Source of the DNA: Callorhinchus milii
Taxonomy: Eukaryota
Direction: 5' to 3'
DNA: 64,000 bases
Assembly (NCBI RefSeq): GCF_018977255.1
Contig: NW_024704742.1
Location: 71,364,001 to 71,428,000 of the forward strand
Shown: positions 3,131 to 60,530 of the stretch, in pieces
Layout: each line of letters opens with the position of its first letter
How positions within the stretch are numbered: the stretch's first letter is position 1
Notes under the pieces: model-generated
The model's input: the letters and a program-made list of their open reading frames with translations, nothing else
Databases searched by the model: none
What the model was told of the DNA's origin: nothing
Position numbers and translations under genes: made by a program

Positions 3131-3326
3131 TGCATAATTATAATTATTGATTCTACAGCACTAGCCGGACATCATGTCTTGTGCGTTTAAGTCCCAACCT
3201 GGGGCTATAATATATGAGTGCTACCAGCTAAGCTAACACCTGAACTTACTTCACAGAGGTTGTTTGAAAAGTAGCAAAGTTGTTTAAACAAAATCTGATT
3301 TGCGAGTCTTTGGTTCTGAACTGTAG

Positions 3327-3483
3327 CCTGCCTGAAATGTGATGTCCAAGAACGACTCATCAGTCCTGCCCTGCTTCCAGGAACAACTGACTTTGTGGGG
3401 AAAACTGAGGGCCTCAGAGATTGTCAGAACCCAAATAAAGCAGTGAACCCGGGATTGCTGCAGCACAAGCTTCAAGTTGTTAA
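3327..3483 (+). CDS. M1AP: M1AP internal exon
   Basis: ctgtag|CC TGC CTG AAA...GTT GTT AA|gtacgt. Encodes CLKCDVQERLISPALLPG...QHKLQVVK; phases join both neighbours in frame. Confidence 0.92.
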
Positions 3484-3520
3484 GTACGTACTCTTCTGTC
3501 TAGACACAGGGTCTAATTTA

Positions 3521-14009: not shown

Positions 14010-17000
14010 ACAACAACAACAACAAGATTCCATTTATAGAGCGCCTTTCACGTCAGGAGGACGTCCCAAGGCGCTGCACAGTTGGGTCATGACCCGAGCA
14101 GGGGGGAAATGGTCAGGGTGAGGGGAGGGAAGGGAGGGAGAGAGGAGGGGGGAAATGGTCAGGGTGAGGGGAGGGAAGGGAGGGAGCGAGGAGGAGGAAG
14201 AGAGTCGAGAGGGGAGCTGAAGGCACGGTCAAAGAGAAAGGTTTTGAGACCGGCCTTGAAGGAGGAAAGGGAGGAAGCAAGGCGAAGGCACTGGGGGATG
14301 GAGTTCCAGAGCCTGGGGGCTGAGAGGCTGAAGGCCCGACCACCGATGGTAGGGCGGTTGGGGCGGGGGACGTGGAGCAGACCGGAGCCAGAGGAACGGA
14401 GGGTACGGGCAGGTAGGTAGGGGGATAGTAGGTTGGAGAGGTAGGAGGGAGCAAGGCCGTGAATGGCCTTGTAGGTGAGGATGAGGATCTTGAAATCAAT
14501 CCTCTGGGGGATGGGGAGCCAGTGGAGGCGAGCGAGGGTGGGAGTGATGTGGTCCCGAAGCCTGGTGCGGGACAGTACACGAGCTGCAGAGTTCTGAATG
14601 ACCTGCAGCTTGTGGAGGGAGGTGGCGGGAAGGCCGGCGAGGAGAGAGTTCCCATAGTCCAGCCTTGAGGTGACAAAGGCGTGAACCAGGGTTTCAGCAG
14701 CGTGAGGGGTGAGGTAGTGCCGTAGTCTGGCGATATTCCGGAGGTGATGGAAGGCGGTGCCAGTTGTGGTGCGGATGTGAGGGAGAAAGGACAGCTCAGG
14801 GTCGAACAAAACGCCGAGGTTCCTGACTGGCTTTGAGAGGTGGAGAGTGCAGCCTTGGATGCTGATGGTGTCAGCGCCTGAGGTGCGGAGGCGCTGACGT
14901 GAGCCAATCAGGAGGGCCTCGGTTTTTCGCACGTTGAGCTGAAGAAAGTTGTCTCTCGTCCAGGACTCGATGTCGGACAGGCAGGCTGTCAGGACATCGG
15001 TGGTCGTGGAGTTGAGAGTAGAGGAGGAAAGGTAGAGTTGGGTGTCATCCGCATACATGTGGAAGTTAACCCCATGTTTGCGGATGATGTCACCAAGGGG
15101 GAGCATATAGAGGGTGAAGAGGAGGGGACCGAGGACAGAGCCCTGAGGGACACCACATGAGACAGTACGGGGGGTGGAGGAGAAGCCATTCGTTGAGACG
15201 AAGTGAAGACGGTGGGAAAGGTAAGAGCTAAACCATTCAAGGACAGTGCCTTGAAGGTTGAGGTGGGAGGACAAGCGGTGGAGTAGGATAGCGTGGTCGA
15301 CCGTATCGAATGCTGCCGATAGGTCGAGGAGGACGAGGAGACAGAGGGAGCCCTGGTCACAGATGGTCAGGATATCATTGGTGACCTTGACCAGGGCAGT
15401 TTCTGTGCTATGAGCAGCACGGAAACCTGACTGAAGGGGTTCAAAAAGAGAATGGGTGGAGAGGAAAGAGCGCAGTTGGGAGGCGACAACTCTTTCCAAG
15501 ACCTTGGAGAGAAAGGGGAGGTTGGAGATGGGCCGGTAGCTTGATAGCTGCGACGCATCAAGGGAGGGTTTTTTCAGGGTGGGCGTGATGATGGCAGTTT
15601 TTAATGGAATGGGGACAGAGCCAGAGGAGAGGGACAGGTTTATGATGTCAGTGATGTGTGGGGCAAGAAAATGGAGCTGGGAGATAAGGAGTGGAGTGGG
15701 GATGGGGTCAAGGGAGCAGGTGGTTGGTTTTAGGGATAGGATGAGTTCAGTGACAGAGGGTGGGGAAACGGGTACGAAGGTGTGTAGGGGAGGATGGGTA
15801 GGAGTCGGAGTGTGGGAGGGAAGGGGTGGGTGGTGGGTGGAAGTTGGAGGGGAAGTGACCGCGGAGCGGATTCCCTTGATCTTGGATTCAAGGAAATCCA
15901 GCATCTCCTCGCAGTGAAGGTTGGAGGAGATGACCTGCGCGGGGTGGCGGGGGGGACGGAGGAGTCGGGATGTGGTGGAAAACAGTAGCCTGGGGTTGTT
16001 CTTCGCCTCCAGGATTATCCTGGAGTAGAAGGACGACTTGGCCGAGGCTAGAGTGGAGCGGTAAATTTTGAGGAGGTCCAGCCAGATTTGTCGGTGGACC
16101 GTTAAGCCGGATTTGACAAAGGTGCGCTCAGCAGCCCGCACCTGGCATTTCAGTGAGCGGAGGTGGGTGGTGTACCAGGGGGAGGAGCGGGAGTAGGAGA
16201 CAGTGCGGGAAGTGATGGGGGCAAGAGTATCGAGTGTGGAGGAGAGGATATTGTGGAGGAGGGAGAGAGGAGAAGAGGGGTCGGTGAGGGTTGAAGGCCA
16301 GAGGGAGAGGAGTTCAGAGGACTCCAAGGCATCGGTTAGGGATTGTGGGGGTAACTTCTTCCAAGGGCGGTAGAAGATGGTGGTGGGTCTGGTGGAGGTG
16401 GGGAGGGGGGTGGAGGTGGTGAAGGAGATGAAGTAGTGGTCGGAGATGGCCTTGTCGGTAATAGTGACATCCGAGACACTGAGGCCCCGGGTGATCACCA
16501 AATCGAGTGGGTGGCCGTGACTGTGAGTGGGGGAGTTTATGTGTAGGGAAAGGTTGAGTGAGGAGAGCAGGGAAGAGAAGTCTGTGGAGATGGAGCAGGA
16601 GGGGGTGAAGTGTAGGTTAAAGTCGCCCAGGATGATGAGGCGATCAGAGGAGAGGCAAAGAGATGTGAGGAGTGTTGAAATGTCAGAGATGAAGGTGGGA
16701 GAGGTTTTAGGGGGCCGGTAGAGGAGGAGGATTTTAAGGGAGAGGAATGAGGGGTGGGAGAGGGTGAGGTGCTCGAAGGAGGGGAAAGAGCCAGAGGAGT
16801 AGGGGGATAGGGCAAGTGGTGTCCTTGAGATAAGGGCAACACCACCGCCACGGCGGTTGGGGCGGGGGATGTGGTGGGAGGTGTAGCCGGGTGGCGTGGC
16901 CTCCGTGAGGGGGAAGGTGTCGCCTGGGGTGAGCCAGGTTTCTGTCAAGGCCATGATATCAACGTTCTCATCAAGGATGAGATCGTTGATGACCAGGGCC

Positions 17001-17736
17001 TTGTTGCAGAGGGAGCGGACATTTTGCAGTCCGATGTGGAGGGAGCGGTTGACAGAAGGGTGTGTGGGAGGGGAGGGGGGTCCAGGTTGTGAGGCAGGGG
17101 TGGGGGAATGGGGATGAGGGAGGAGAGGTTGACTCCCCGGGTCTGTGTCCGGGGTGGGTGGCGAGTGTGGTGGGGAATGGGGCAGTCGGTGTGGCTGCTG
17201 CTGGACAGCCAACGCCGAGTGCCACGGTGAGCCCGGCGGAGGATTCCCAGACTGGAACAGAGGGAGGTTGTGGGAGGGTCAAGTGGGGATAGAAGACGAG
17301 AGGGACGGAGAGAGAGGAGGAGAGAGCGGGAGAGATGCAGAGGGGGAGGGTTTGGGGGGAGAGAGGAGGGGGGGGGGGGGGGGGGGTGAGGGGGCTCGGG
17401 TCAAAGCGGCAGCCATAGTGCGCACGCGGGGACCGGGAGCGAGCGGTCAGGTGGATGGCATTATCCCGTAGATTGGGGCATCGAACCCAACAGGACCATA
17501 GTGGGCTCTGATGTGAGCCCGGGGGGGGGGGGGGGGGGCGCGGAGGTTTTTTGTTTTTTTTGTTTTGTGCGCGCGCACTCACCTGAAAACTAATCTATGA
17601 CGTCGCAGTTCCCCCGCTCCGCCTCCAGACCACCCCCTCCCTCCCCTGCCTAGCTGAACTCGCTCCGGCGTCGAGTTTAAGTACCTGGGTCAGTAGGCCC
17701 AGGCTCCTCCCCGCGCTCTCCTGCTGCCGCTCCCCG
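14010..17736 (-). mobile_element. Near full-length L2-clade LINE, young copy
   Basis: CpG-rich 5' region (about 17400-17736), long APE-RT ORF, 3' UTR stem-loop and (TTG)n tail at about 14010-14025. Flanks resemble two halves of a family B SINE; no TSD seen. Confidence 0.92.
14159..17212 (-). CDS. L2 LINE ORF2: AP-like endonuclease plus reverse transcriptase
   Basis: 1017-codon open frame. EN motifs: [42 protein letters not shown] motifs: [55 protein letters not shown]. The annotated start is a TTG; the true start is probably upstream. Confidence 0.93.
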
Positions 17737-29249: not shown

Positions 29250-29640
29250 GAGTTTAGAAGGTTAAGGGGGTGATCTAATTGAGGCGTTCAAAAATGATAA
29301 AGGTATTTGATAGGGTAGTTACCCTGAAACTATTTCCTCTGGAGGGGGAATCCAGAACATGGGAGCATCATCTTAAAATTAGAGCTGGACCATTTTGAAG
29401 TGAAATCAGGAAGCACTTTTTCATGCAAAGGGTAGTGGAAATCTGGAACTCAAAAGGCTGTGGATGTGAGATCCATTCAAATTTTTAAGACTGAGGTAGA
29501 TAGGTTTCTATTAGGTAAGGGTATCAAGGGATATGGAGCAAGGGTGGGTAATTGGAGTTGAGGTACAGATCAGCCATGATCTTATAGAATGGCAGAACCA
29601 GCTCGAGGGGCTGAATGGCCTACTCCTGTTCCTATGGTCC
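29250..29640 (+). mobile_element. CR1 LINE 3' end
   Basis: tttagaaggttaagggggtgatctaattgagg...gatcagccatgatctt...ggggctgaatggcctactcctgttcctatg, typical of CR1 ORF2 end and 3' UTR. Confidence 0.8.
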
Positions 29641-33310: not shown

Positions 33311-33917
33311 TCAAACATTCCCCAAATCCTCATAAATTGATTCCTGGGGGAGGCCGGAGCCATCGACTGACATCTCCTGCCCAGCCTGGCCTGACCTGGC
33401 AGATTTCACGACCATACTGTAGATGCAGTTGTTGGAGCAGTTGAAATTCCCTCTGCCCTGCGGTCTATCGTTCACGGGCTGTCCCTGATCCTTTGTCTCT
33501 GAGCGTCTGTCTTTCAGATTGCCAACTAGGGGCTTGGGCCCTGGCAGAGGTTTGAGCTTCCTGTTCCTGGCGGGCTCCTGCCCACCCTTGGCCACAGGAG
33601 GCACCAAATAATCGTCCATGCAGGGATTGTAAGGCACCTCGTGGCCCACCACCTCGCTCGTTCCTTTCCTCTTCCAAGCATCGCCCATGTCTGTGGTTTT
33701 CGCTTCGTCGTAGATGGTGCTTGGGTCTGGAAGAGGTTGTTGGCCCCAGCCCTCGGGCTCGTCGTAAATGTGATCCAGGGCCCTGCCTCCAGACCTAGGG
33801 AAGGCCACAGGCCCAGCAGGGTCATACTTGACTCTCTCGTACAAGTCAGCGTACAGCGGCTCTCCCCTGCCCCCCCGGCGTGGGGGTACTGGAGCTTTAC
33901 CCTCCTTCGCCGGGCAC
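33311..33917 (-). CDS. DOK1: DOK1 exon 6 (last coding exon, tyrosine-rich docking tail)
   Basis: gattctag|G TGC CCG...; encodes ...LYADLYERV...HIYDEPEG...IYDE...PYNPCMDDYLVPP...IYEDLGNV*. YDEP and YNPxxDDY are DOK1 motifs. Confidence 0.9.
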
Positions 33918-33920
33918 CTA

Positions 33921-34185
33921 GAATCATAATAATAATCCTTACATTTGATGTAGCACCTTATCAGGTCTTCAAGACATCTCAAAGCACTTCACAGAGTATA
34001 CTGTAAAGTGAATTGACTGTATATTTTGTGGCCGAAACGCAGCCGCCAATATCGCACTTCAGTGTCCCACAAACAGTCGTGGATTGAGAGACCAAATTGT
34101 TATTCAATTTTTTTTGAAGGGATTATTACTCTGAAAAGCGATCCACCAATTGATTAACACCTGGGTTCCTATTCACTGCTAGGGA
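33921..34185 (-). mobile_element. SINE family A (headless) whose tail abuts the DOK1 exon 6 acceptor
   Basis: Sense strand ends ...aaatgtaaggattattattatgattctag|G. Confidence 0.85.
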
Positions 34186-34199
34186 GACTAATTGCCTAA

Positions 34200-35292
34200 C
34201 TGTTTCTTACAGCACAGAAGGAGGCCATTCGGCCCATCGTGCCCATGTTAGTTTTTTGAAAGCTCCCCCGCTCTTACTCTACAAGAGTATAAGAAATAGG
34301 AGCAAGAGTAGGCCATTTGGGCCCTTGAGGCTGCCCCGCCATTTAATAAGATCATGGCTGATCTTCTAACCCAATTCAATTTACCCGTCCTATCCCCATA
34401 TCCCTCCAAATCTTTCCTTTTTGAAAGCTGTTATCGAATTTGCTTCCACCACCTTTTCGGACACTGCAATCCGCCTGCATACGGGCCTGGACCAAACTCC
34501 GTAACCACATTTCACCAGTTCTGGCCAGGCTCCACTGGCTCCCTATTCCCAAACCATCAACTTCAAGATCCTCACACTCATGTTCAAATCCCTTCACTCG
34601 CTGGCACCTCCCTACCTTTCTGACCTCCTCACTCCCCAATCCACCACCCAGTGCCTCTGCTGGACTGGCACCGGCCTCCTGCCTGTCCCTTGCACCCTCC
34701 GCCCCACCATCGAAGTTCACGCTTTCAGCCACTATGCCCCAAAACTCTGTCCCTCAATCCCTCCACCTTCCCCCCTCTCTCCCCTCTTTCAAATCCCGCC
34801 TAGAAAACTTTCCTCTTCGACCATGCTTACGGTCACTCGCCCCTCCCCCCAGCTCAAAATCAGGCTCGGCCACTGTTAAGCGCTCTGAGACACTACCCTG
34901 CATGGAGGGCACTATACAAGTGCAAGTTGTTGTAACAACTCTCTGGATAAAAATTTTTCCTCATCTTCCTTCTGGTCCTTTTGCCAATTATCTTAAACCT
35001 GTGTCCTCTGGTTACCAACCCAACTGCCAGAGGAAACAGTTTCTCCCTATCTACCCTATCTAAACCCCTCATAATTTGGAACACCTCTATTATATCTCCC
35101 CTTAACCTTCTCTGCTCTAAGGAGAACAATCCCAGCTTCTCTCGTCTCTCCACACAATTGAAGTCCCTGGCACCATTCTTGCAAATCTGTTCTGCACCCT
35201 CTCCAAGGCCCTGATATCTTTCCTGTAGTGTGGTGCCTAGAATTGACCACAATACTCCAGCTGAGGCCTAACCAGCAATTTGTAAAGGTACA
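34200..35292 (-). mobile_element. CR1 3' fragment(s) interrupted by a + strand L2 fragment (about 34470-34935)
   Basis: [12 protein letters not shown]...LGLFSLEQRRLRGDIIEVFQIMRGLDRVD...TRGHRFKI and two CR1 3' UTR ends. Confidence 0.85.
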
Positions 35293-35295
35293 AAC

Positions 35296-35831
35296 CTGGG
35301 CAGATTGTCCAGGGGGTCGGAGTAGAGGCTGTCAGCCCTGTGCTGAGGCCTGCTGGGCACCTTCACTGCATCCACGGGGTCTGAATATATGGAGCTGGGG
35401 TCAGAGTTCACTTGGGGCTTGGCAGTCTTGGGAATGGGCGAGCGGGGAGGGGTGGCGGGCGGGTCAGGCAGACTGCGGCCTTTCAGGAGTTTGGGGAGGT
35501 CCTTCTCCTCCGCCCCCATAGGGTTGACTCGGGAAGCCACTGTCAGCTTCGAGACCCCCACCCCCACCTCACTGGAGGAGGAGGAAGAGGAGGAGGAGTA
35601 GAGATTGGGGAAGACGGGGTCCTGAGAGCCCCGCTCGGCCCCAGCCTCCGCGTACCCACTCAGGTCCTGCTCGGAGGAGTGAAAGCTCCTGCGGTTTTCC
35701 TCAGCCTGGGCTTTCTGCTCCCGGATCCCACACTCCACTAGAAGGAAGATGTCGTTGCCATGCTTGGTCTCAAAGGTGAAGTTTCCCGCTCCAGATTCAC
35801 AGCGTCGCCCGGCTTCAAAAGAGAACATGAT
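35296..35831 (-). CDS. DOK1: DOK1 exon 5 (PTB C-terminus plus Pro/Tyr region)
   Basis: ctcgcag|ATC ATG TTC...CCC AG|gtttgt. Encodes [29 protein letters not shown]...IYSDP...LYSDP; 536 nt, phase 0 to phase 2. Confidence 0.92.
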
Positions 35832-36488
35832 CTGCGAGCACGAGACACGGAAATGAGGGGGAGAACAACAACAACAAATACATTTACACAGCACCTTTCA
35901 CGTTGGGAGGATGTCCCAAGACATTCGACAGTTAGGGATTTGGCTCTATTTGAACATCAGTTACTGGCGCACTCGCTGGAGACCCCAACTCCTACCCAAA
36001 CCCTCTCCGCTCCAGTGGCTCTTGCTCTACTCCCCACAAGCTCCATCTTTTCCGAACCTCCATGACCTGGCTGCCCCAGACCCTCATCCTCACTCCATCC
36101 CCCACCCAGGCGCTTTACTGTTAGGTACCTTTGTACTCCACATGAGCCCCTATGGCTTTGCCTCCTTCGAGGCCAGTCTCACGGCACTCCTCTCCGACTG
36201 CAGCTTCGTTCACCCTCCAACCCCTACCCTCCCTGCTCTCCACCTCCAGTTGGGGTGCAAATCCGTCTCTCTAGGCAGGCTGTTCTATATGTTTACTACT
36301 CGCTCACTGAAGTAGTGTTTCCGCTGACTTGTTTTGAATTTACCCCCTTTAATTGCAGATTGACGATTGAACAGTTGATTGAGCCAGTTATTAATATTGT
36401 GGTTGAACTGATGATCCCATTTTACATGCAGTGCTGAATACTACGCTCAGACACTCTGCAGTAAGCAGGCCCCTGTCTAGCTGCTCAC

Positions 36489-36661
36489 CTTGTCCCTCCC
36501 ATATCGCCTCAGCAGCTTGTATGGCCACATGTAGAGGGGCTGCTTGGTTTTGGCATCTTTCAGCACCAGAGCTTCCTGGTCAGCCTTCAGCAGGTATCTC
36601 CCATGTAGCCCGCACCTCTCTGCCGCCTCCGTCTTCTGTACTGCCACCCAGAACTCGTTCA
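36489..36661 (-). CDS. DOK1: DOK1 exon 4 (IRS-type PTB domain)
   Basis: ccctcag|TG AAC GAG...GAC AAG|gtgagc. Encodes FWVAVQKTEAAERCGLHG...WPYKLLRRYGRDK. Confidence 0.95.
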
Positions 36662-36794
36662 CTGAGGGCGGCAAGTCAGAAAGTGTTCATTACCTCATTT
36701 CATCTTCACCATTTCTTCCTTCTGCCACCCGCACTCACTCCCTCTCTACCCTTTCTCGCTCTACACTCTCTCCAGCAGTTACCTCAACGAACTC

Positions 36795-39626: not shown

Positions 39627-39714
39627 CTTCTTCTCTGGAGTAGTAGAGGCTGTTTTCCGCCATCTCCAACGACACAGGTTTTGAGTTTGCCCCACAGAAG
39701 GAGTCACTTGGCGA
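39627..39714 (-). CDS. DOK1: DOK1 exon 3 (PH-PTB linker)
   Basis: ctccacag|TCG CCA...GAA G|gtgagt; 88 nt. Encodes ...LEMAENSLYYSREE (DOK1 LEMxENSLY motif). Confidence 0.92.
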
Positions 39715-42519: not shown

Positions 42520-42860
42520 ATCAAATGATAAGAGTAGATGGAGAGAAACTGTTTCCACTGGCAGGTGGGTCAGTAACCAGGGGACATGGATTCAACATAA
42601 TCGTCAAAAGAAGGGGAGATGAATGTTGAGAAATGTTTTTACACAGAGAGTTGTTACGGTCTGGAATGCACTGCCTGACAGTGGTGGAAACCAATCCGAT
42701 AACAGCTTTCAAAAGGGAATTAAGTAGGTACTTGAAGAGGACAAATTTGCAAGGATATGAGGAAAGAGCGGGGGAGTGGGACTGATTGTGTGGCTCTTCT
42801 AAAGAGCCAGCACAAGCAGAATGGGCCGAATGGCCTCCTTCTGTGCTGTAGGATTCTATT
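42520..42860 (+). mobile_element. CR1 3' end
   Basis: gagaaactgtttccactggcagg...ggtctggaatgcactgcctgac...gggccgaatggcctccttctgtgctgta. Confidence 0.8.
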
Positions 42861-56509: not shown

Positions 56510-57780
56510 ACAACCCCCCCCCCCCCCCCCCCCGCCCAAATCTACCCACCTCTCTAAACTACCCCCGCTTTTCTCTCTTTCTGATCTACCCCCTCTCTTT
56601 CAATCTATTCCCCCTCGCTTCTCCCTCAACCCCCCCCCTCTCTTAAACCTCCTATCTCCTCTCTCTCTCAAACCCCCTCCTCCCTCTCACCCCCCCCCCC
56701 CCCCCCCCGTCTCTTAAACCTCCTCTCTCCTCTCTTTCTCAAACCCCCTTCTCCCTCTCAAACCCCCTCCTCCCTCTCACCCCCCCCCCCCCCCGTCTCT
56801 TAAACCTCCTCTCTCCTCTCTTTCTCAAACCCCCTTCTCCCTCTCAAACCCCCTCCTCCCTCTCAACCCCCCCCCCCCCCCCGTCTCTTAAACCTCCTCT
56901 CTCCTCTCTCTCTCAAACCCCCTCCTCTCCCTCAACCCCCCCCCTCTCTCTCTTAAACCTCCTCTCTCCTCTCTCTCTCAAACCCCCTCCTCTCCCTCAA
57001 CCCCCCCCTCTCTCTCTTAAACCTCTCTCCTCTCTCTCTCAAACCCCCTCCTCTCCCTCAACCCCCCCCCTCTCTCTCTTAAACCTCCTCTCTCCTCTCT
57101 CTCTCAAACCCCCTCCTCCCTCTCAACCCCCCCCCCTCTCAAACCCCCTCCTCCTCTCAACCCCCCCTCTCTCAAACCCCCTCTTTCTCAAACCCCCTCT
57201 CTCTCAACACCCCCCTTCTCCTCTCACCCCCCTCTCTCTATCAAACCCCCTCTCTCTCAAACCCCCCCTCTCTCTCTCAACACCCCCTCTCCTCTCACCC
57301 CCCTCTCTCTCAACCCCCTCTCTCTCTCTCTCAAATCCCCTCTCTCTCTCAACCCCCCCTCTCTCTCAACTCCTCCCCCTCTCTCAACACCCCCCTCTCC
57401 TCTCACCCCCCCCTCTCTCTCAAACCCCCTCTCTCTCTCTCTCAAATCCCCCCTCTCTCTCTCAACCCCCCCCCTCTCTCTCAACTCCTCCCCCCTCTCT
57501 CAACACCCCCCCTTCTCCTCTCACCCCCCTCTCTCTATCAAACCCCCCTCTCTCTCAACACCCCTCTCCTCTCACCCCCCCTCTCTCAAAGCCCCCCTCT
57601 CTCAACCCCCCCCTCTCTCAAACCCCCCTCTCAAACTCCCCTCTCAACCCCCCCACCTCTCTCTCTCTCTCTCTCTCAACACCCCCCCCCGTCTCTCTCT
57701 CTCAACTCCCCCCCGCAACCCCCCCACTCACCCCCTCTCTCAACGCCCCCCTCTCAACCTCCCCTTCCCCCCTCCCCCCC
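56510..57780. repeat. Pyrimidine-rich complex minisatellite (ctctctcaaacccccc units) in DOK1 intron 1
   Basis: About 1.3 kb almost lacking G on the + strand. Confidence 0.95.
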
Positions 57781-58195
57781 AGTGTCGGGGTTACCCCCCC
57801 CCCCAGTGTCGGGGTTACCCCCCCCAGTGTCGGGGTTATTCGCACTATTCCGAATTAGCGAAAGAAATGAGCAAATTTGCATTTCCCAAACCTACAAAAT
57901 GAGATCCCCTCTCAGCAGATCCCCGGGACTGTACCCCTCCCTCTGCCCGGGGGGGGGGGGGGGGGGGGCAAAATAGTCCATTTACATAGAAGAAGACGAT
58001 CCAGAAAACACCGATCGCTGCAGAGACTGAGTTGGGGGTCAGAGAGTTGTTGGAGATTCAGCGACAACATCGGGAAAGGAAAAGTTCAGCGGAAACTTTT
58101 AAACTGAAGTCAACGCAAAACTGGGTTCCTTCCCCCACCCCCTGGGAGTGGGAGTGGGTAACATGGTCATACTGCAGGGCTGCTCCCCCACCCCG

Positions 58196-59483
58196 TCTGT
58201 CTGTCTGTCTGTCTCTGTGTGTGTCTGTCTGTGTGTTTATGTGTGTGTGTGTGTCTCTGTGTGTGTGTCTGTGTGTGTGTGTCTCTGTGTGTGAGTGTGT
58301 CTCTGTCTCTGTGTGTGAGTGAGTGAGTGAGTGTGTGTGAGTGTGTGTGTGTCTCTCTGTGTAAGTGAGTGTGTGAGTGAGTGTGTGTGAGTGAGTGAGT
58401 GTGTGAGTGTGTGTGTGTGTGTGTGTCTCTCTGTGTGAGTGTGTGTGTGAGTGTGAGAGTGAGTGTGAGTGAGTGTGTCTCTGTATGTGTGTCTCTGTGT
58501 GAGTGAGTGTGTGTGAGTGAGTGAGTGAGTGAGTGAGTGAGTGTGTGTGTGAGAGTGTGTGTGTCTCTCTGTGTGTGAGTGTGTGTGTGTGTGTGTGAGT
58601 GTTTGAGTGAGTGAGTGTGTGTGTGTGTGTGTGTGAGTGAGTGTGTGTGTGTGTCTGTGTGAGTGAGTGTGTGTGTGTGAGTGTGTGTGTGTGAGTGTGT
58701 GAGTGTGTGTGTGAGTGAGTGTGTGTGTGTGTGAGTGAGTGAGTGAGTGAGTGAGTGAGTGTGTGTGTGTGTGTGAGTGAGTGTGTGTGAGTGTGTGAGT
58801 GAGTGTGTGTGTGTGTGTGAGTGAGTGTGTGAGTGAGTGAGAGTGTGTGTGTGTGTGTGAGTGAGTGAGTGTGTGTGAGTGTGTGTGAGAGTGAGTGTGT
58901 GAGTGTGTGAGTGAGTGTGTGTGTGTGTGTGAGTGAGTGAGTGTGTGAGTGAGTGTGAGTGAGTGAGTGTGTGTGTGAGTGTGTGTGTTTGAGTGAGTGA
59001 GTGTGTGTGTGTCTCTCTGTGTGAGTGAGTGTGTGTGTGAGTGAGTGTGTGTGTGAGTGAGTGTGTGTGTGAGTGTGTGAGTGAGTGTGTGAGTGTGTGT
59101 GTGAGTGTGTGTGTGTGTGAGTGAGTGAGTGAGTGTGTGTGTGAGTGAGTGTGTGTGTGAGTGTGTGAGTGTGTGTGAGTGAGTGTGTGTGTGAGTGTGT
59201 GAGTGTGTGTGTGAGTGAGTGTGAGTGTGTGAGTGTGTGTGTGAGAGTGAGTGTGTGAGTGTGTGAGTGAGTGAGTGTGTGTGAGTGTGTGTGTGAGAGT
59301 GAGTGTGTGAGTGTGTGTGTGTGAGTGAGTGTGAGTGTGTGAGTGAGTGTGTGTGTGAGTGTGTGTGTGTGTGAGTGTGTGAGTGTGTGTGAGTGTGAGT
59401 GTGTGTGTCTCTGTGTGAGTGAGTGAGTGTGTGTGTGAGTGTGTGTGTGTGTGTGTGTGAGTGTGTGTGAGTGAGTGAGTGTG
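58196..59483. repeat. (GT)n/(GTGA)n compound microsatellite
   Basis: About 1.3 kb starting about 15 nt inside DOK1 intron 1. Confidence 0.97.
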
Positions 59484-59498
59484 CAGGCTGGCTCTCAC

Positions 59499-59555
59499 CT
59501 TGCCAAACTTGAGATGTAGGACCTGAAGTTGTCCTTCTTTTATGGCCTTGTCCAT
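59499..59555 (-). CDS. DOK1: DOK1 exon 1 (start codon)
   Basis: gacATGG Kozak-like context; MDKAIKEGQLQVLHLKFGK|gtgaga. Similar to the DOK1 N-terminus (MDGAVMEG...RFG) and phase 0 into exon 2. Confidence 0.88.
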
Positions 59556-59667
59556 GTCACTCTCTCTCTCTCCCCTCCCGGCCACCCGGTCGGTCTCTGG
59601 TTAGGGACCTCTCCTCGTCTCAGTTGCTGGTCAGTTTTGTCCAACTTCCGCGTTGTCGGTTCCTCTG

Positions 59668-60215
59668 CCCCTCCCTCTCTCTCCCTCTCCTTCTCTCTCT
59701 CTCCCCCTCCCTCCCTCTTTCCCCCTCCCCCCTCTTTCCCCCTCCCCCTCCCTCCCTCGTTCCCCCTCTCCCTCCCTCTTTCCCCTTCTCTCTCTCCCTC
59801 CCTCCCTCTTTCCCCCTCTCCCTCCCTCCCTCTTTCCCCTTCTGCCTCTCCCTCCCTCCCTCTTTCCCCTTCTGTCTCTCCCTCCCTCCCTCTTTCCCCT
59901 TCTCTCTCTCCCTCCCTCTTTCCCCCTCTCTCCCTCCCTCCCTCTTTCCCCCTCTCTCCCTCCCTCCCTTTCCCCTTCTGTCTCTCCCTCCCTCCCTCTT
60001 TCCCCCTCTCCCTCCCTCCCTTTCCCCTTCTGTCTCTCCCTCCCTCCCTCTTTCCCCTCTCTCTCTCCCTCCCTCTTTCTCCCTCTCTCCATCCCTCCTC
60101 TTTCCCCTTCTCTCCTCCCTCCCTCTTTCCCCTTCTCTCTCCCTCCCTCTCTCCCCCTCTCTCCCTCCCTCCCTCTTTCCCCTTCTCTCCCTCCCTCCCT
60201 CCTTCCCTCTCTCTC
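59668..60215. repeat. CT-rich ~30-bp tandem repeat upstream of the DOK1 ATG
   Basis: Units like tttccccttctgtctctccctccctccctc. Confidence 0.95.
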
Positions 60216-60530
60216 TGGTCCGTTTCTTTGCTGACAGCTCAGTTATTGAACCTCCACCAACTCCTGAGTCTCCACACACAGTCTGGCACAGTACAGCCCA
60301 ACCATGGTACCCCCTCCCCCCCTCCCAACACCTGCCCCCATCCAATAAGATATATTTCACCAATAAAAAATCTCCTTTCCTCCAATTGCAATCCTTCGAC
60401 CCCAAAGAAACCCTCCCTCTCTCTGTAACAGCGATGATCCTTACATCTCACACAGTGGCTCGTCACGTCCTTGAGATGTCTCAAAGCAGCATTTCATTGT
60501 GAAATGTCGCGACTGACTGTGTTTTGTAAT

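What the first reader, a model, noticed from the sequence alone, without database searches (positions are those of the whole stretch)
33918..35295. Apparent intron gain in DOK1: a 1378-nt intron built wholly of retroelements, with AGGT at both junctions
Seen: the Tyr/Pro-rich tail is split at CCCAG|GTTTGT...TTCTAG|GTGC (phase 2), and only splicing restores the frame to the YDEP and YNP motifs. CR1 sequence starts within a few bases of the donor. The acceptor AG directly follows a SINE (ATT)n tail with no classical polypyrimidine tract, and everything between is CR1, L2 or SINE. From memory, human DOK1 has five coding exons and encodes this region in one terminal exon. Inference: a lineage-specific intron created or re-bordered by retrotransposon insertion at a duplicated AGGT proto-splice site, a mechanism rarely documented in vertebrates. 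AG|GT is also simply the consensus, so this is not proof.
Basis: partly seen in the sequence, partly recalled or inferred. Interest (0 to 1): 0.72.

Follow-up and report, generated by a model that had tools for sequence, protein, structure and literature searches.

The report
LINE-made intron in elephant-shark DOK1
An extra intron in the elephant shark's DOK1 signalling gene looks like a single jumping-gene (CR1 LINE) insertion that landed in a coding exon and is cut out cleanly using the four bases duplicated at its ends, a way of gaining introns that is well known in theory but seldom caught in vertebrates.

Summary
The intron is real. The gene is Callorhinchus milii dok1b: six window exons joined at 35296/33917 translate exactly to RefSeq XP_042193032.1, and isoform X2 uses the same acceptor. 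RNA-like contigs fit the splice only indirectly. The site is unbroken in a teleost genomic contig and in 8 genomic-type ORFs of birds, teleosts and a rodent. Shark, ray and other chimaera DNA was not obtained.
One 5'-truncated CR1 starts at intron base +3. An antisense L2, a second CR1 3' end and a SINE-like repeat are nested inside it. The last bases (ATGATTCT) match the CR1 terminal octamer, not the SINE tail (0 of 20 other tails). So intron = GT + CR1 + AG, flanked by AGGT.
Best reading (0.75): CR1 insertion into exonic AGGT with a 4-bp target duplication created the intron. This is the textbook model. I found no LINE-made coding intron in a vertebrate in print; the nearest case is a DNA-transposon-like intron in notothenioid slc26a2. 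The scan noted DNA-transposon-type cases in other genomes. An empty site in a close relative is still missing.

The parts
59499..59555 (-). dok1b coding exon 1
   Evidence: joined translation identical to XP_042193032.1
40634..40933 (-). coding exon 2 (PH domain)
39627..39714 (-). coding exon 3
   Evidence: introns 3 and 4 at the same places in teleost contig L001
36489..36661 (-). coding exon 4 (PTB domain)
   Evidence: intron 35832-36488 joined in runs X1, X3, X8
35296..35831 (-). exon 5a: 5' part of the ancestral terminal exon; ends CCCAG, phase 2
35647..35664 (-). alternative donor (exon ends at 35656) used by RefSeq isoform X2, spliced to the same new acceptor; removes 120 aa in frame
   Evidence: joined translation identical to P0017 = XP_042193057.1; not seen directly
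35294..35297 (-). AG|GT, upstream copy of the proposed 4-bp target-site duplication; 5' splice site
   Evidence: that it is a TSD is inference
34934..35293 (-). 5'-truncated CR1, end of ORF2, sense to the gene; starts at intron base +3; carries a stop and a frameshift
   Evidence: tblastn of P0155 aligns 35293-35138 and 35174-34941; profile positive from 35293, 0 of 10 at 35296, 35299, 35302
34473..34933 (+). nested L2-type LINE 3' fragment, antisense; about 6 CR1 bases lost at its insertion point
   Evidence: many window copies, best 83%; similar to the RT-bearing element at 14159-17278; the label L2 rests on a recalled motif
34393..34472 (-). host CR1 resumes
   Evidence: collinear with window copies at 42663-42763 and 52850-52778
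34276..34392 (-). nested 3' end of a second CR1-type family (boundaries approximate)
   Evidence: matches window copies 29527-29635 and 21986-21873
34205..34275 (-). host CR1 3' UTR up to the start of its tail
   Evidence: collinear with the copy at 42764-42852
33927..34204 (-). nested SINE-like repeat, 5'-truncated, with (ATT)n tail, inserted into the CR1 tail
   Evidence: 24 window hits, 11% from the majority base; the label SINE is inferred, tRNA head not tested
33920..33927 (-). ATGATTCT: remnant of the CR1 terminal octamer repeat
   Evidence: other copies continue with TTCTATGATT or TTTTATGATTCT (loose ends in X1, X3, X8); window copies; L003, L004 tails; GATTCT in 0 of 20 other SINE tails
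33916..33919 (-). AG|GT, downstream copy of the proposed duplication; 3' splice site
   Evidence: used by RefSeq X1 and X2; X1 contig 1 begins at 33919
33311..33917 (-). exon 5b: rest of the Tyr/Pro-rich tail to the stop codon

Best explanation
A sense-oriented, 5'-truncated CR1 LINE (about 0.55 kb) inserted into the single terminal coding exon of dok1b in the chimaera lineage, at CCC-AGG-TGC, and duplicated AGGT. The upstream copy plus the first CR1 bases make a usable donor (CAG|GTTTGT). The CR1 tail plus the downstream copy make the acceptor (ATTCT-AG|G). Splicing removes the element and one AGGT and restores the earlier reading frame. Later an L2, a second CR1 3' end and a SINE inserted into the now neutral intron and took it to 1378 nt. 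SHOWN: splicing in RefSeq models, CR1 start at +3, nesting order, tail match, unbroken site in bony vertebrates. INFERRED: that AGGT is a target-site duplication, that the site was intronless just before insertion, and that this happened after the split from sharks and rays.
For: (1) Both RefSeq isoforms use the acceptor; X1 uses both sites. (2) Run X1 contig 6 stops aligning at 35294 with 26 letters left, the number expected if it overlaps by 30 letters the contig that starts at 33919; X8 contig 28 also leaves at 35294; X3 and X8 have zero depth at 35160-35274. (3) Teleost contig L001 has introns 3 and 4 but one continuous HSP across the site, residues 207-457; 8 ORFs with intron-like N-termini run unbroken to the stop. 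(4) CR1 homology switches on at 35293. (5) One CR1 copy at 42531-42860 threads collinearly through the intron around the three nested inserts. (6) The intron ends in the CR1 tail motif. (7) The direct repeat across the junctions is 4 nt here and 0-2 nt in the four shared introns, whose acceptors lie 32-120 nt from any repeat. (8) CR1 makes short TSDs: 13 of 16 coelacanth insertions, with examples of 2-10 nt (PMC4255032).
Against: No empty site from a close relative was seen, so the TSD is unproven; AG|GT is also the splice consensus. The spliced joint was not printed. The 3' assignment rests on 8-9 bases, and 4 tail bases are missing at the SINE insertion. The residue encoded at +6 to +8 does not match the CR1 profile (0 of 10), so the conservative CR1 start is +9, and the profile has only 10 of 153 usable proteins. 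I saw no clear TSD by eye at two other old copies of this CR1, and nested inserts show small target deletions instead. The elements are old (SINE 11% from the majority base; CR1 77-91% identical to other copies), so the ends may have been reworked. The peptide around the site varies from 28 to 39 aa among 22 orthologues, so precise insertion cannot be checked at codon level.
Confidence: 0.75

Rival explanations
1. An older chondrichthyan or holocephalan intron of other origin was later filled and overwritten by retroelements; deletions left CR1 and SINE next to the splice sites, and AG|GT is just the consensus.
For: 59% of the window has a self-hit, so introns fill with repeats. No elasmobranch or other chimaera genomic DNA was obtained. 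No empty site was seen.
Against: It needs all older intron sequence lost except GT and AG, with both ends of the same CR1 at the borders. The four shared introns keep 32-120 nt of non-repeat acceptor sequence. Two skate ORFs run unbroken from the start of exon 5 to the stop on 1377-nt contigs, a weak hint of absence.
Confidence: 0.12
2. CR1 made or entered the intron, but the present acceptor was set later by the SINE insertion ('re-bordering'); ATGATTCT is a chance variant of the SINE tail.
For: 2 of 20 other SINE 3' ends contain ATGATT within 30 nt. Further in-frame AGs exist inside the SINE (exon starts at 33956, 33977, 33986).
Against: GATTCT follows 0 of 20 other tails, and ATGATTCTA occurs once in the 128,000 bases of both strands. 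It is the continuation seen in other copies of this CR1 in three runs. The CR1 breaks off at its tail exactly where the SINE begins.
Confidence: 0.08
3. CR1 cDNA was captured during double-strand-break repair, with AGGT as a repair-made direct repeat rather than a product of the CR1 endonuclease.
For: Repair-made introns also carry short direct repeats (PMC3443670). TSDs were not evident at other window copies.
Against: The insert is 5'-truncated and ends at its natural 3' tail, as expected of target-primed reverse transcription.
Confidence: 0.04
4. Not a real intron: an assembly or annotation artefact, or a rare disruptive allele.
For: The joint was not printed. No listed DNA contig spans the donor end. 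Ensembl-derived model P0002 is two residues shorter at the junction.
Against: Two RefSeq records give the same protein. DNA-like run X11 of another study spans the acceptor unbroken, 33320-33953. Several nested, diverged inserts imply long fixation.
Confidence: 0.01

Closest known systems
Transposon-insertion model of intron gain at AGGT protosplice sites (Yenerall and Zhou 2012, PMC3443670; passages read)
   Same: An element inserts into exonic AGGT; the duplication supplies AG|GT and AG|G; the coding sequence is unchanged.
   Different: Their table lists 35 cases in Oryza, Drosophila, Oikopleura and Zea, none in a vertebrate. Here the element is a CR1 LINE and its own ends are still legible.
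Notothenioid slc26a2 intron 3 (Torii et al. 2025, PMC12357937; section 20 and passages read)
   Same: Vertebrate coding-region intron made of TE sequence, 4-nt direct repeats contributing to GT-AG, later lengthened by a nested element.
   Different: NTE-1 has putative inverted repeats (DNA-transposon-like) and is supported by related species without it. This case is a non-LTR retrotransposon in a lineage with very low intron turnover and lacks an empty-site comparison.
Introners (Gozashti et al. 2022 PMC9860276, 2025 PMC12130899; passages read, and supplement searched for 2025)
   Same: TE-made introns with TSD-co-opted splice sites; about 5% of classified families are non-LTR retrotransposons.
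   Different: Introners were called as families of at least four similar introns. Both C. milii assemblies are listed with 0 families, and the authors note a lack of recent gain in vertebrates. This is one old, nested, single event.
SINE/Alu intronization: rice CatA intron; four Alu-activated human 3'-UTR introns (Sela et al. 2007, PMC2394776; passages read)
   Same: A retroelement insertion into an exon yields a new intron.
   Different: The human cases are alternative 3'-UTR introns with splice sites inside the Alu or the exon; the rice case is a SINE in a plant. Here the intron is in coding sequence and must be spliced for the full-length protein.

Membership tests
Intron gained by transposon insertion at AGGT | Intron is spliced at the predicted sites | tested here: met
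   RefSeq X1 and X2 reproduce exactly; contig end-points fit; the joint itself was not printed
Intron gained by transposon insertion at AGGT | Absent from distant orthologues | tested here: met
   teleost contig L001; 8 genomic-type ORFs of birds, teleosts and a rodent
Intron gained by transposon insertion at AGGT | Absent from the sister group (sharks, rays) | tested here: inconclusive
   only skate ORFs P0135 and P0137 on 1377-nt contigs, which may be RNA
Intron gained by transposon insertion at AGGT | One element spans the intron from end to end | tested here: met
   CR1 from +3 (conservatively +9) to -3; the 3' end rests on 8-9 bases
Intron gained by transposon insertion at AGGT | AGGT direct repeat across both junctions | tested here: met
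   4-nt repeat versus 0-2 nt in the four shared introns
Intron gained by transposon insertion at AGGT | Empty site with a single AGGT in a close relative | not testable with these tools
   no other chimaera sequence; no genome held
CR1 LINE insertion | ORF2 C-terminal homology to CR1 | tested here: met
   63% identity to P0155 in tblastn; P0155 in turn fetches loci with ATTCTRTG tails
CR1 LINE insertion | 5' truncation and 3' octamer microsatellite | tested here: met
   octamer as described in PMC8665684 and PMC4316615; the tail is split by the SINE
CR1 LINE insertion | Short target-site duplication | tested here: inconclusive
   AGGT fits the 2-10-nt examples in PMC4255032 but cannot be told from splice consensus without an empty site
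Introner (family of intron-generating TEs) | At least four similar introns made by the same element in the genome | not testable with these tools
   no genome held; the published screen lists 0 families for both C. milii assemblies, so it is not filed as an Introner

The most novel reading that the evidence does not exclude
CR1 LINEs are a recurrent, overlooked source of coding-region introns in cartilaginous fishes. Their tail ends one base short of an acceptor (ATTCT + AG), so insertion at AG-starting targets yields a 3' splice site. Similarity-based Introner screens would miss such introns because copies are variably 5'-truncated, old and buried under nested repeats. A share of the few chimaera- and shark-specific introns would then be CR1 copies bounded by their own TSDs, and the new acceptors could seed new isoforms such as dok1b X2.
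Probability: 0.18. Interest if true: 0.85.

Novelty: new variant of a known kind. Interest (0 to 1): 0.66.

Why it matters
How vertebrates gain introns is largely unexplained: most gained introns have lost any trace of their source (PMC2746811), and genome-wide Introner screens list none for this species. C. milii has the lowest intron turnover among the gnathostomes compared by Venkatesh et al. (PMC3964593) and a slow neutral rate, which is probably why both ends of the founding element can still be read. The locus gives a concrete, testable case of a LINE turning into a coding-region intron, a search rule for others (CR1 tail + AG at the acceptor, truncation point at the donor), and a possible example of a new acceptor creating a new isoform. 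It does not change the known function of DOK1.

Tried and rejected
No whole genome was held, so no genome-wide CR1 consensus or survey of CR1-bounded introns was possible. No listed holder was on record as RNA; X1, X3 and X8 behave as spliced RNA and X11 as DNA. Contig depths (17.9 on the exon path, 2.24 on a 65-nt unspliced contig in X1) are a poor measure and were not used as a retention rate. A search for short split ORFs (exon 5a or 5b alone) found none among 306 candidates; this shows nothing about sharks. The metagenome scan gave 1 locus from 35 candidates, a teleost. Exact scans for the CR1 3' motif found 0 in viral and 0 in prokaryote contigs. The protein scan of prokaryote contigs gave 7 loci, apparently contaminating vertebrate CR1s of other families, used only for the tail motif. 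An imperfect 8-nt repeat in the spliced mRNA (TGCCCAGG / TGCCCGGC) could be read as a longer TSD, but it would add 8 nt and shift the frame, so it was rejected as less parsimonious. Tandem genomic duplication and intronization were rejected: the intron has no similarity to the flanking exons (hits start at 35111 and end at 33919 and are to repeats elsewhere), and orthologues show no large extra peptide at the site. A branch point was not established; the UnA candidates at -25 to -10 are weak. Rhincodon gene models that start at exon 5 (P0015, P0142) were not counted as evidence. Literature searches found no report of this intron or of a CR1-made intron. The supplementary PDF of Venkatesh et al. 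2014, with the intron-gain note, was too large to read and may list this intron; its table archive had no hit for DOK1. Files 13-14 of the PMC12130899 supplement were not searched.

Full report
1. What the locus is. The minus-strand gene is Callorhinchus milii dok1b. Exon 5a hits XP_042193032.1 at 100%, and Pfam gives PH + IRS-type PTB. Six window exons (59555-59499, 40933-40634, 39714-39627, 36661-36489, 35831-35296, 33917-33311) translate exactly to that 586-aa protein. The stretch 35295-33918 is 1378 nt, GT...AG, phase 2, with AG|GT at both junctions. If retained, it stops the protein after residue 393 and removes the tail with the YDEP and YNP motifs.

2. Is it spliced? RefSeq isoform X2 (XP_042193057.1) joins an exonic donor at 35656 to the same acceptor and deletes 120 aa in frame. 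So two models use this AG. Four runs of four studies were laid on 33320-36760 (4 of 14 listed). The shared intron 35832-36488 is joined in X1, X3 and X8. The 35296/33917 joint is not among the 15 joints printed (187 hidden). The indirect signs agree with it. X1 contig 6 (855 nt) stops aligning at 35294 with 26 letters left, and X1 contig 1 begins at 33919; a 30-letter overlap of those two contigs across the splice predicts exactly 26 (inference from 31-mer assembly; the letters were not shown). X8 contig 28 also leaves at 35294. X3 and X8 have zero depth at 35160-35274. A low-depth X1 contig (33890-33954) is unspliced. X11 behaves as DNA and spans the acceptor unbroken. No listed DNA piece spans the donor.

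3. Is it lineage-restricted? A metagenome scan returned one locus of 35 candidates, teleost-like contig MDSQ01069685.1 (L001). It has introns 3 and 4 at the same positions and a continuous frame across residues 207-457 of P0001, which includes the site at residue 385. Of 154 proteins screened, 25 lack exon-4 sequence before the exon-5 start. Eight of these are assembly ORFs that begin with an intron-like peptide ending in Q and run to the stop: five bird-like (P0022, P0032, P0034, P0078, P0081), two teleost-like (P0086, P0114) and one rodent-like (P0153). Several lie on contigs of 8-23 kb. The other 17 are gene models, splice variants or ORFs starting at the exon-5 Met and were not counted. 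For elasmobranchs there is only a hint: two skate-cluster ORFs of 375 aa from the exon-5 start to the stop on 1377-nt contigs, which could be RNA. No other chimaera sequence was found. The human exon count is recalled, not checked.

4. Anatomy of the intron. 5' end: a CR1 ORF2 fragment from an ENA contig (P0155) aligns by tblastn to 35293-35138 and 35174-34941 at 63%. In a profile from the 10 of 153 proteins that reached far enough upstream, the residue at 35293 is the majority residue (8 of 10), and those at 35296, 35299 and 35302 match 0 of 10. The residue at 35290 also matches 0 of 10, so the start is +3, or +9 if read conservatively. Middle: a single CR1 copy elsewhere in the window (42531-42860) threads collinearly through 35057-34932, 34472-34393 and 34275-34206; a second copy (52965-52700) does likewise. 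The gaps are an antisense L2-type fragment (34933-34473), the 3' end of a second CR1-type family (about 34392-34276) and a SINE-like repeat (34204-33927). The labels L2 and SINE rest partly on recall. 3' end: the CR1 breaks off at ...GCTGTAAGA (34205), the start of its tail. Other copies continue TTCTATGATT (loose ends in X1 and X8) or TTTTATGATTCT (X3); the window copies continue GGATTCTATT and AGAATCCATGATG after GCTGTA. CR1 loci L003 and L004 end in (ATTCTATG)n, the octamer described for CR1 (PMC8665684, passage; PMC4316615, passages). After the SINE's (ATT)n, the intron reads ATGATTCT-AG. GATTCT follows 0 of 20 other SINE tails, and ATGATTCTA occurs once in the window. The SINE therefore inserted into the CR1 tail, and the intron is GT + one CR1 + AG.

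5. Controls. In the four shared introns the acceptor lies 32-120 nt from the nearest repeat and has 14-15 of 20 pyrimidines; here the distance is about 1 nt and the count 10 of 20. The direct repeat across the junctions is 0-2 nt in those introns and 4 nt here. This control is small (n = 4). The donor matches 7 of 9 positions of the recalled donor consensus, as good as the best shared intron, with +5G and +6T supplied by the CR1. AGGT occurs 7 times in the 1143 coding bases of exons 5a+5b, so a suitable hit is rare but not extraordinary in a genome this rich in repeats (59% of the window has a self-hit).

6. Mechanism. Best reading (0.75): target-primed insertion of a 5'-truncated CR1 into exonic AGGT with a 4-bp duplication; the spliceosome removes the element and one copy, restoring the frame; later insertions enlarged the intron. 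Short TSDs are normal for CR1: 13 of 16 coelacanth insertions had them (PMC4255032, passages). Against: no empty site; no clear TSD by eye at two other old copies; the 3' call rests on 8-9 bases; the elements are old (SINE 29 of 257 columns off the majority base; L2 70 of 433; CR1 77-91% pairwise in three hits); and the local peptide length varies from 28 to 39 aa among 22 orthologues. Rivals: an older intron overwritten by repeats (0.12), an acceptor set by the SINE (0.08), repair capture (0.04), artefact (0.01). Because this is the last intron, retention would probably escape exon-junction-dependent decay and give a tail-less PH-PTB protein (inference from general knowledge), so the founding allele must have spliced well from the start.

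7. Relation to what is known. It works like the AGGT transposon-insertion model; the 2012 review lists cases in rice, fly, Oikopleura and maize only (PMC3443670, passages). The nearest vertebrate case seen is notothenioid slc26a2 intron 3, an inverted-repeat element with 4-nt direct repeats and a nested insert (PMC12357937, section 20 and passages). Alu-activated introns in human 3' UTRs and the rice CatA SINE intron are the retroelement precedents (PMC2394776, passages). Introner surveys classify about 5% of families as non-LTR and list 0 families for both C. milii assemblies (PMC12130899, passages and supplement search; PMC9860276, passages). It is therefore not filed as an Introner. Gained introns of teleost serpins showed no repeat similarity (PMC2746811, passages). 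Passages of PMC13343379, PMC12124190, 10.1101/443036 and 10.64898/2026.06.26.733778 added nothing on this locus. Nine searches found no report of this intron or of a CR1-made intron; the library lacks most subscription journals. Earlier scan notes hold nothing near this locus and a few DNA-transposon-type intron cases in other genomes (not checked by me).

8. Verdict. A real, probably chimaera-specific intron whose two ends coincide with the two ends of one CR1 LINE. The mechanism is known; the element class and host are unusual. Interest 0.66; new variant of a known kind. The decisive missing item is the orthologous site in other chimaeras and in sharks.

Noticed in passing
window 35656 / 33917 (-): RefSeq isoform X2 uses an exonic donor (GG|GTACGC) with the new acceptor and deletes 120 aa of the Pro-rich region, including two YSDP motifs; this isoform could not exist without the gained intron.
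   Followed up: partly
window 14159-17278 (-): A 1039-aa open frame with endonuclease and reverse-transcriptase domains: an apparently intact L2-type LINE ORF, possibly young.
   Followed up: partly
window 33956, 33977, 33986 (-): Three further AGs inside the SINE are in frame with the donor and stop-free; their use would add 13-23 SINE-derived residues. No RNA support seen.
   Followed up: no
P0156 (UniRef A0A4W3GZ..., C. milii 'ERCC-6-like'): The model's C-terminal 70 residues or so are CR1 ORF2 sequence, 80% identical to this intron's CR1; probably an annotation artefact or an exonized CR1.
   Followed up: no
L002-L007 (bacterial genome contigs): Short contigs in Nocardia, Streptomyces, Chitinophaga and Fredinandcohnia assemblies carry vertebrate-type CR1 3' ends, four of the six with ATTCTRTG-like tails: likely contamination of those assemblies.
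   Followed up: no
window 3287-3499 (-): Weak Pfam hit to an IL27B-like FN3 domain (E 6e-5, below the curated cut-off); may be an exon of a neighbouring cytokine-receptor gene.
   Followed up: no
window 33572-33869: Six exonic differences in X1 and three in X3 relative to the window: probably alleles.
   Followed up: no
window 56600-60300: Long low-complexity blocks (C/T-rich, (CA)n-like, purine-rich) flank coding exon 1.
   Followed up: no
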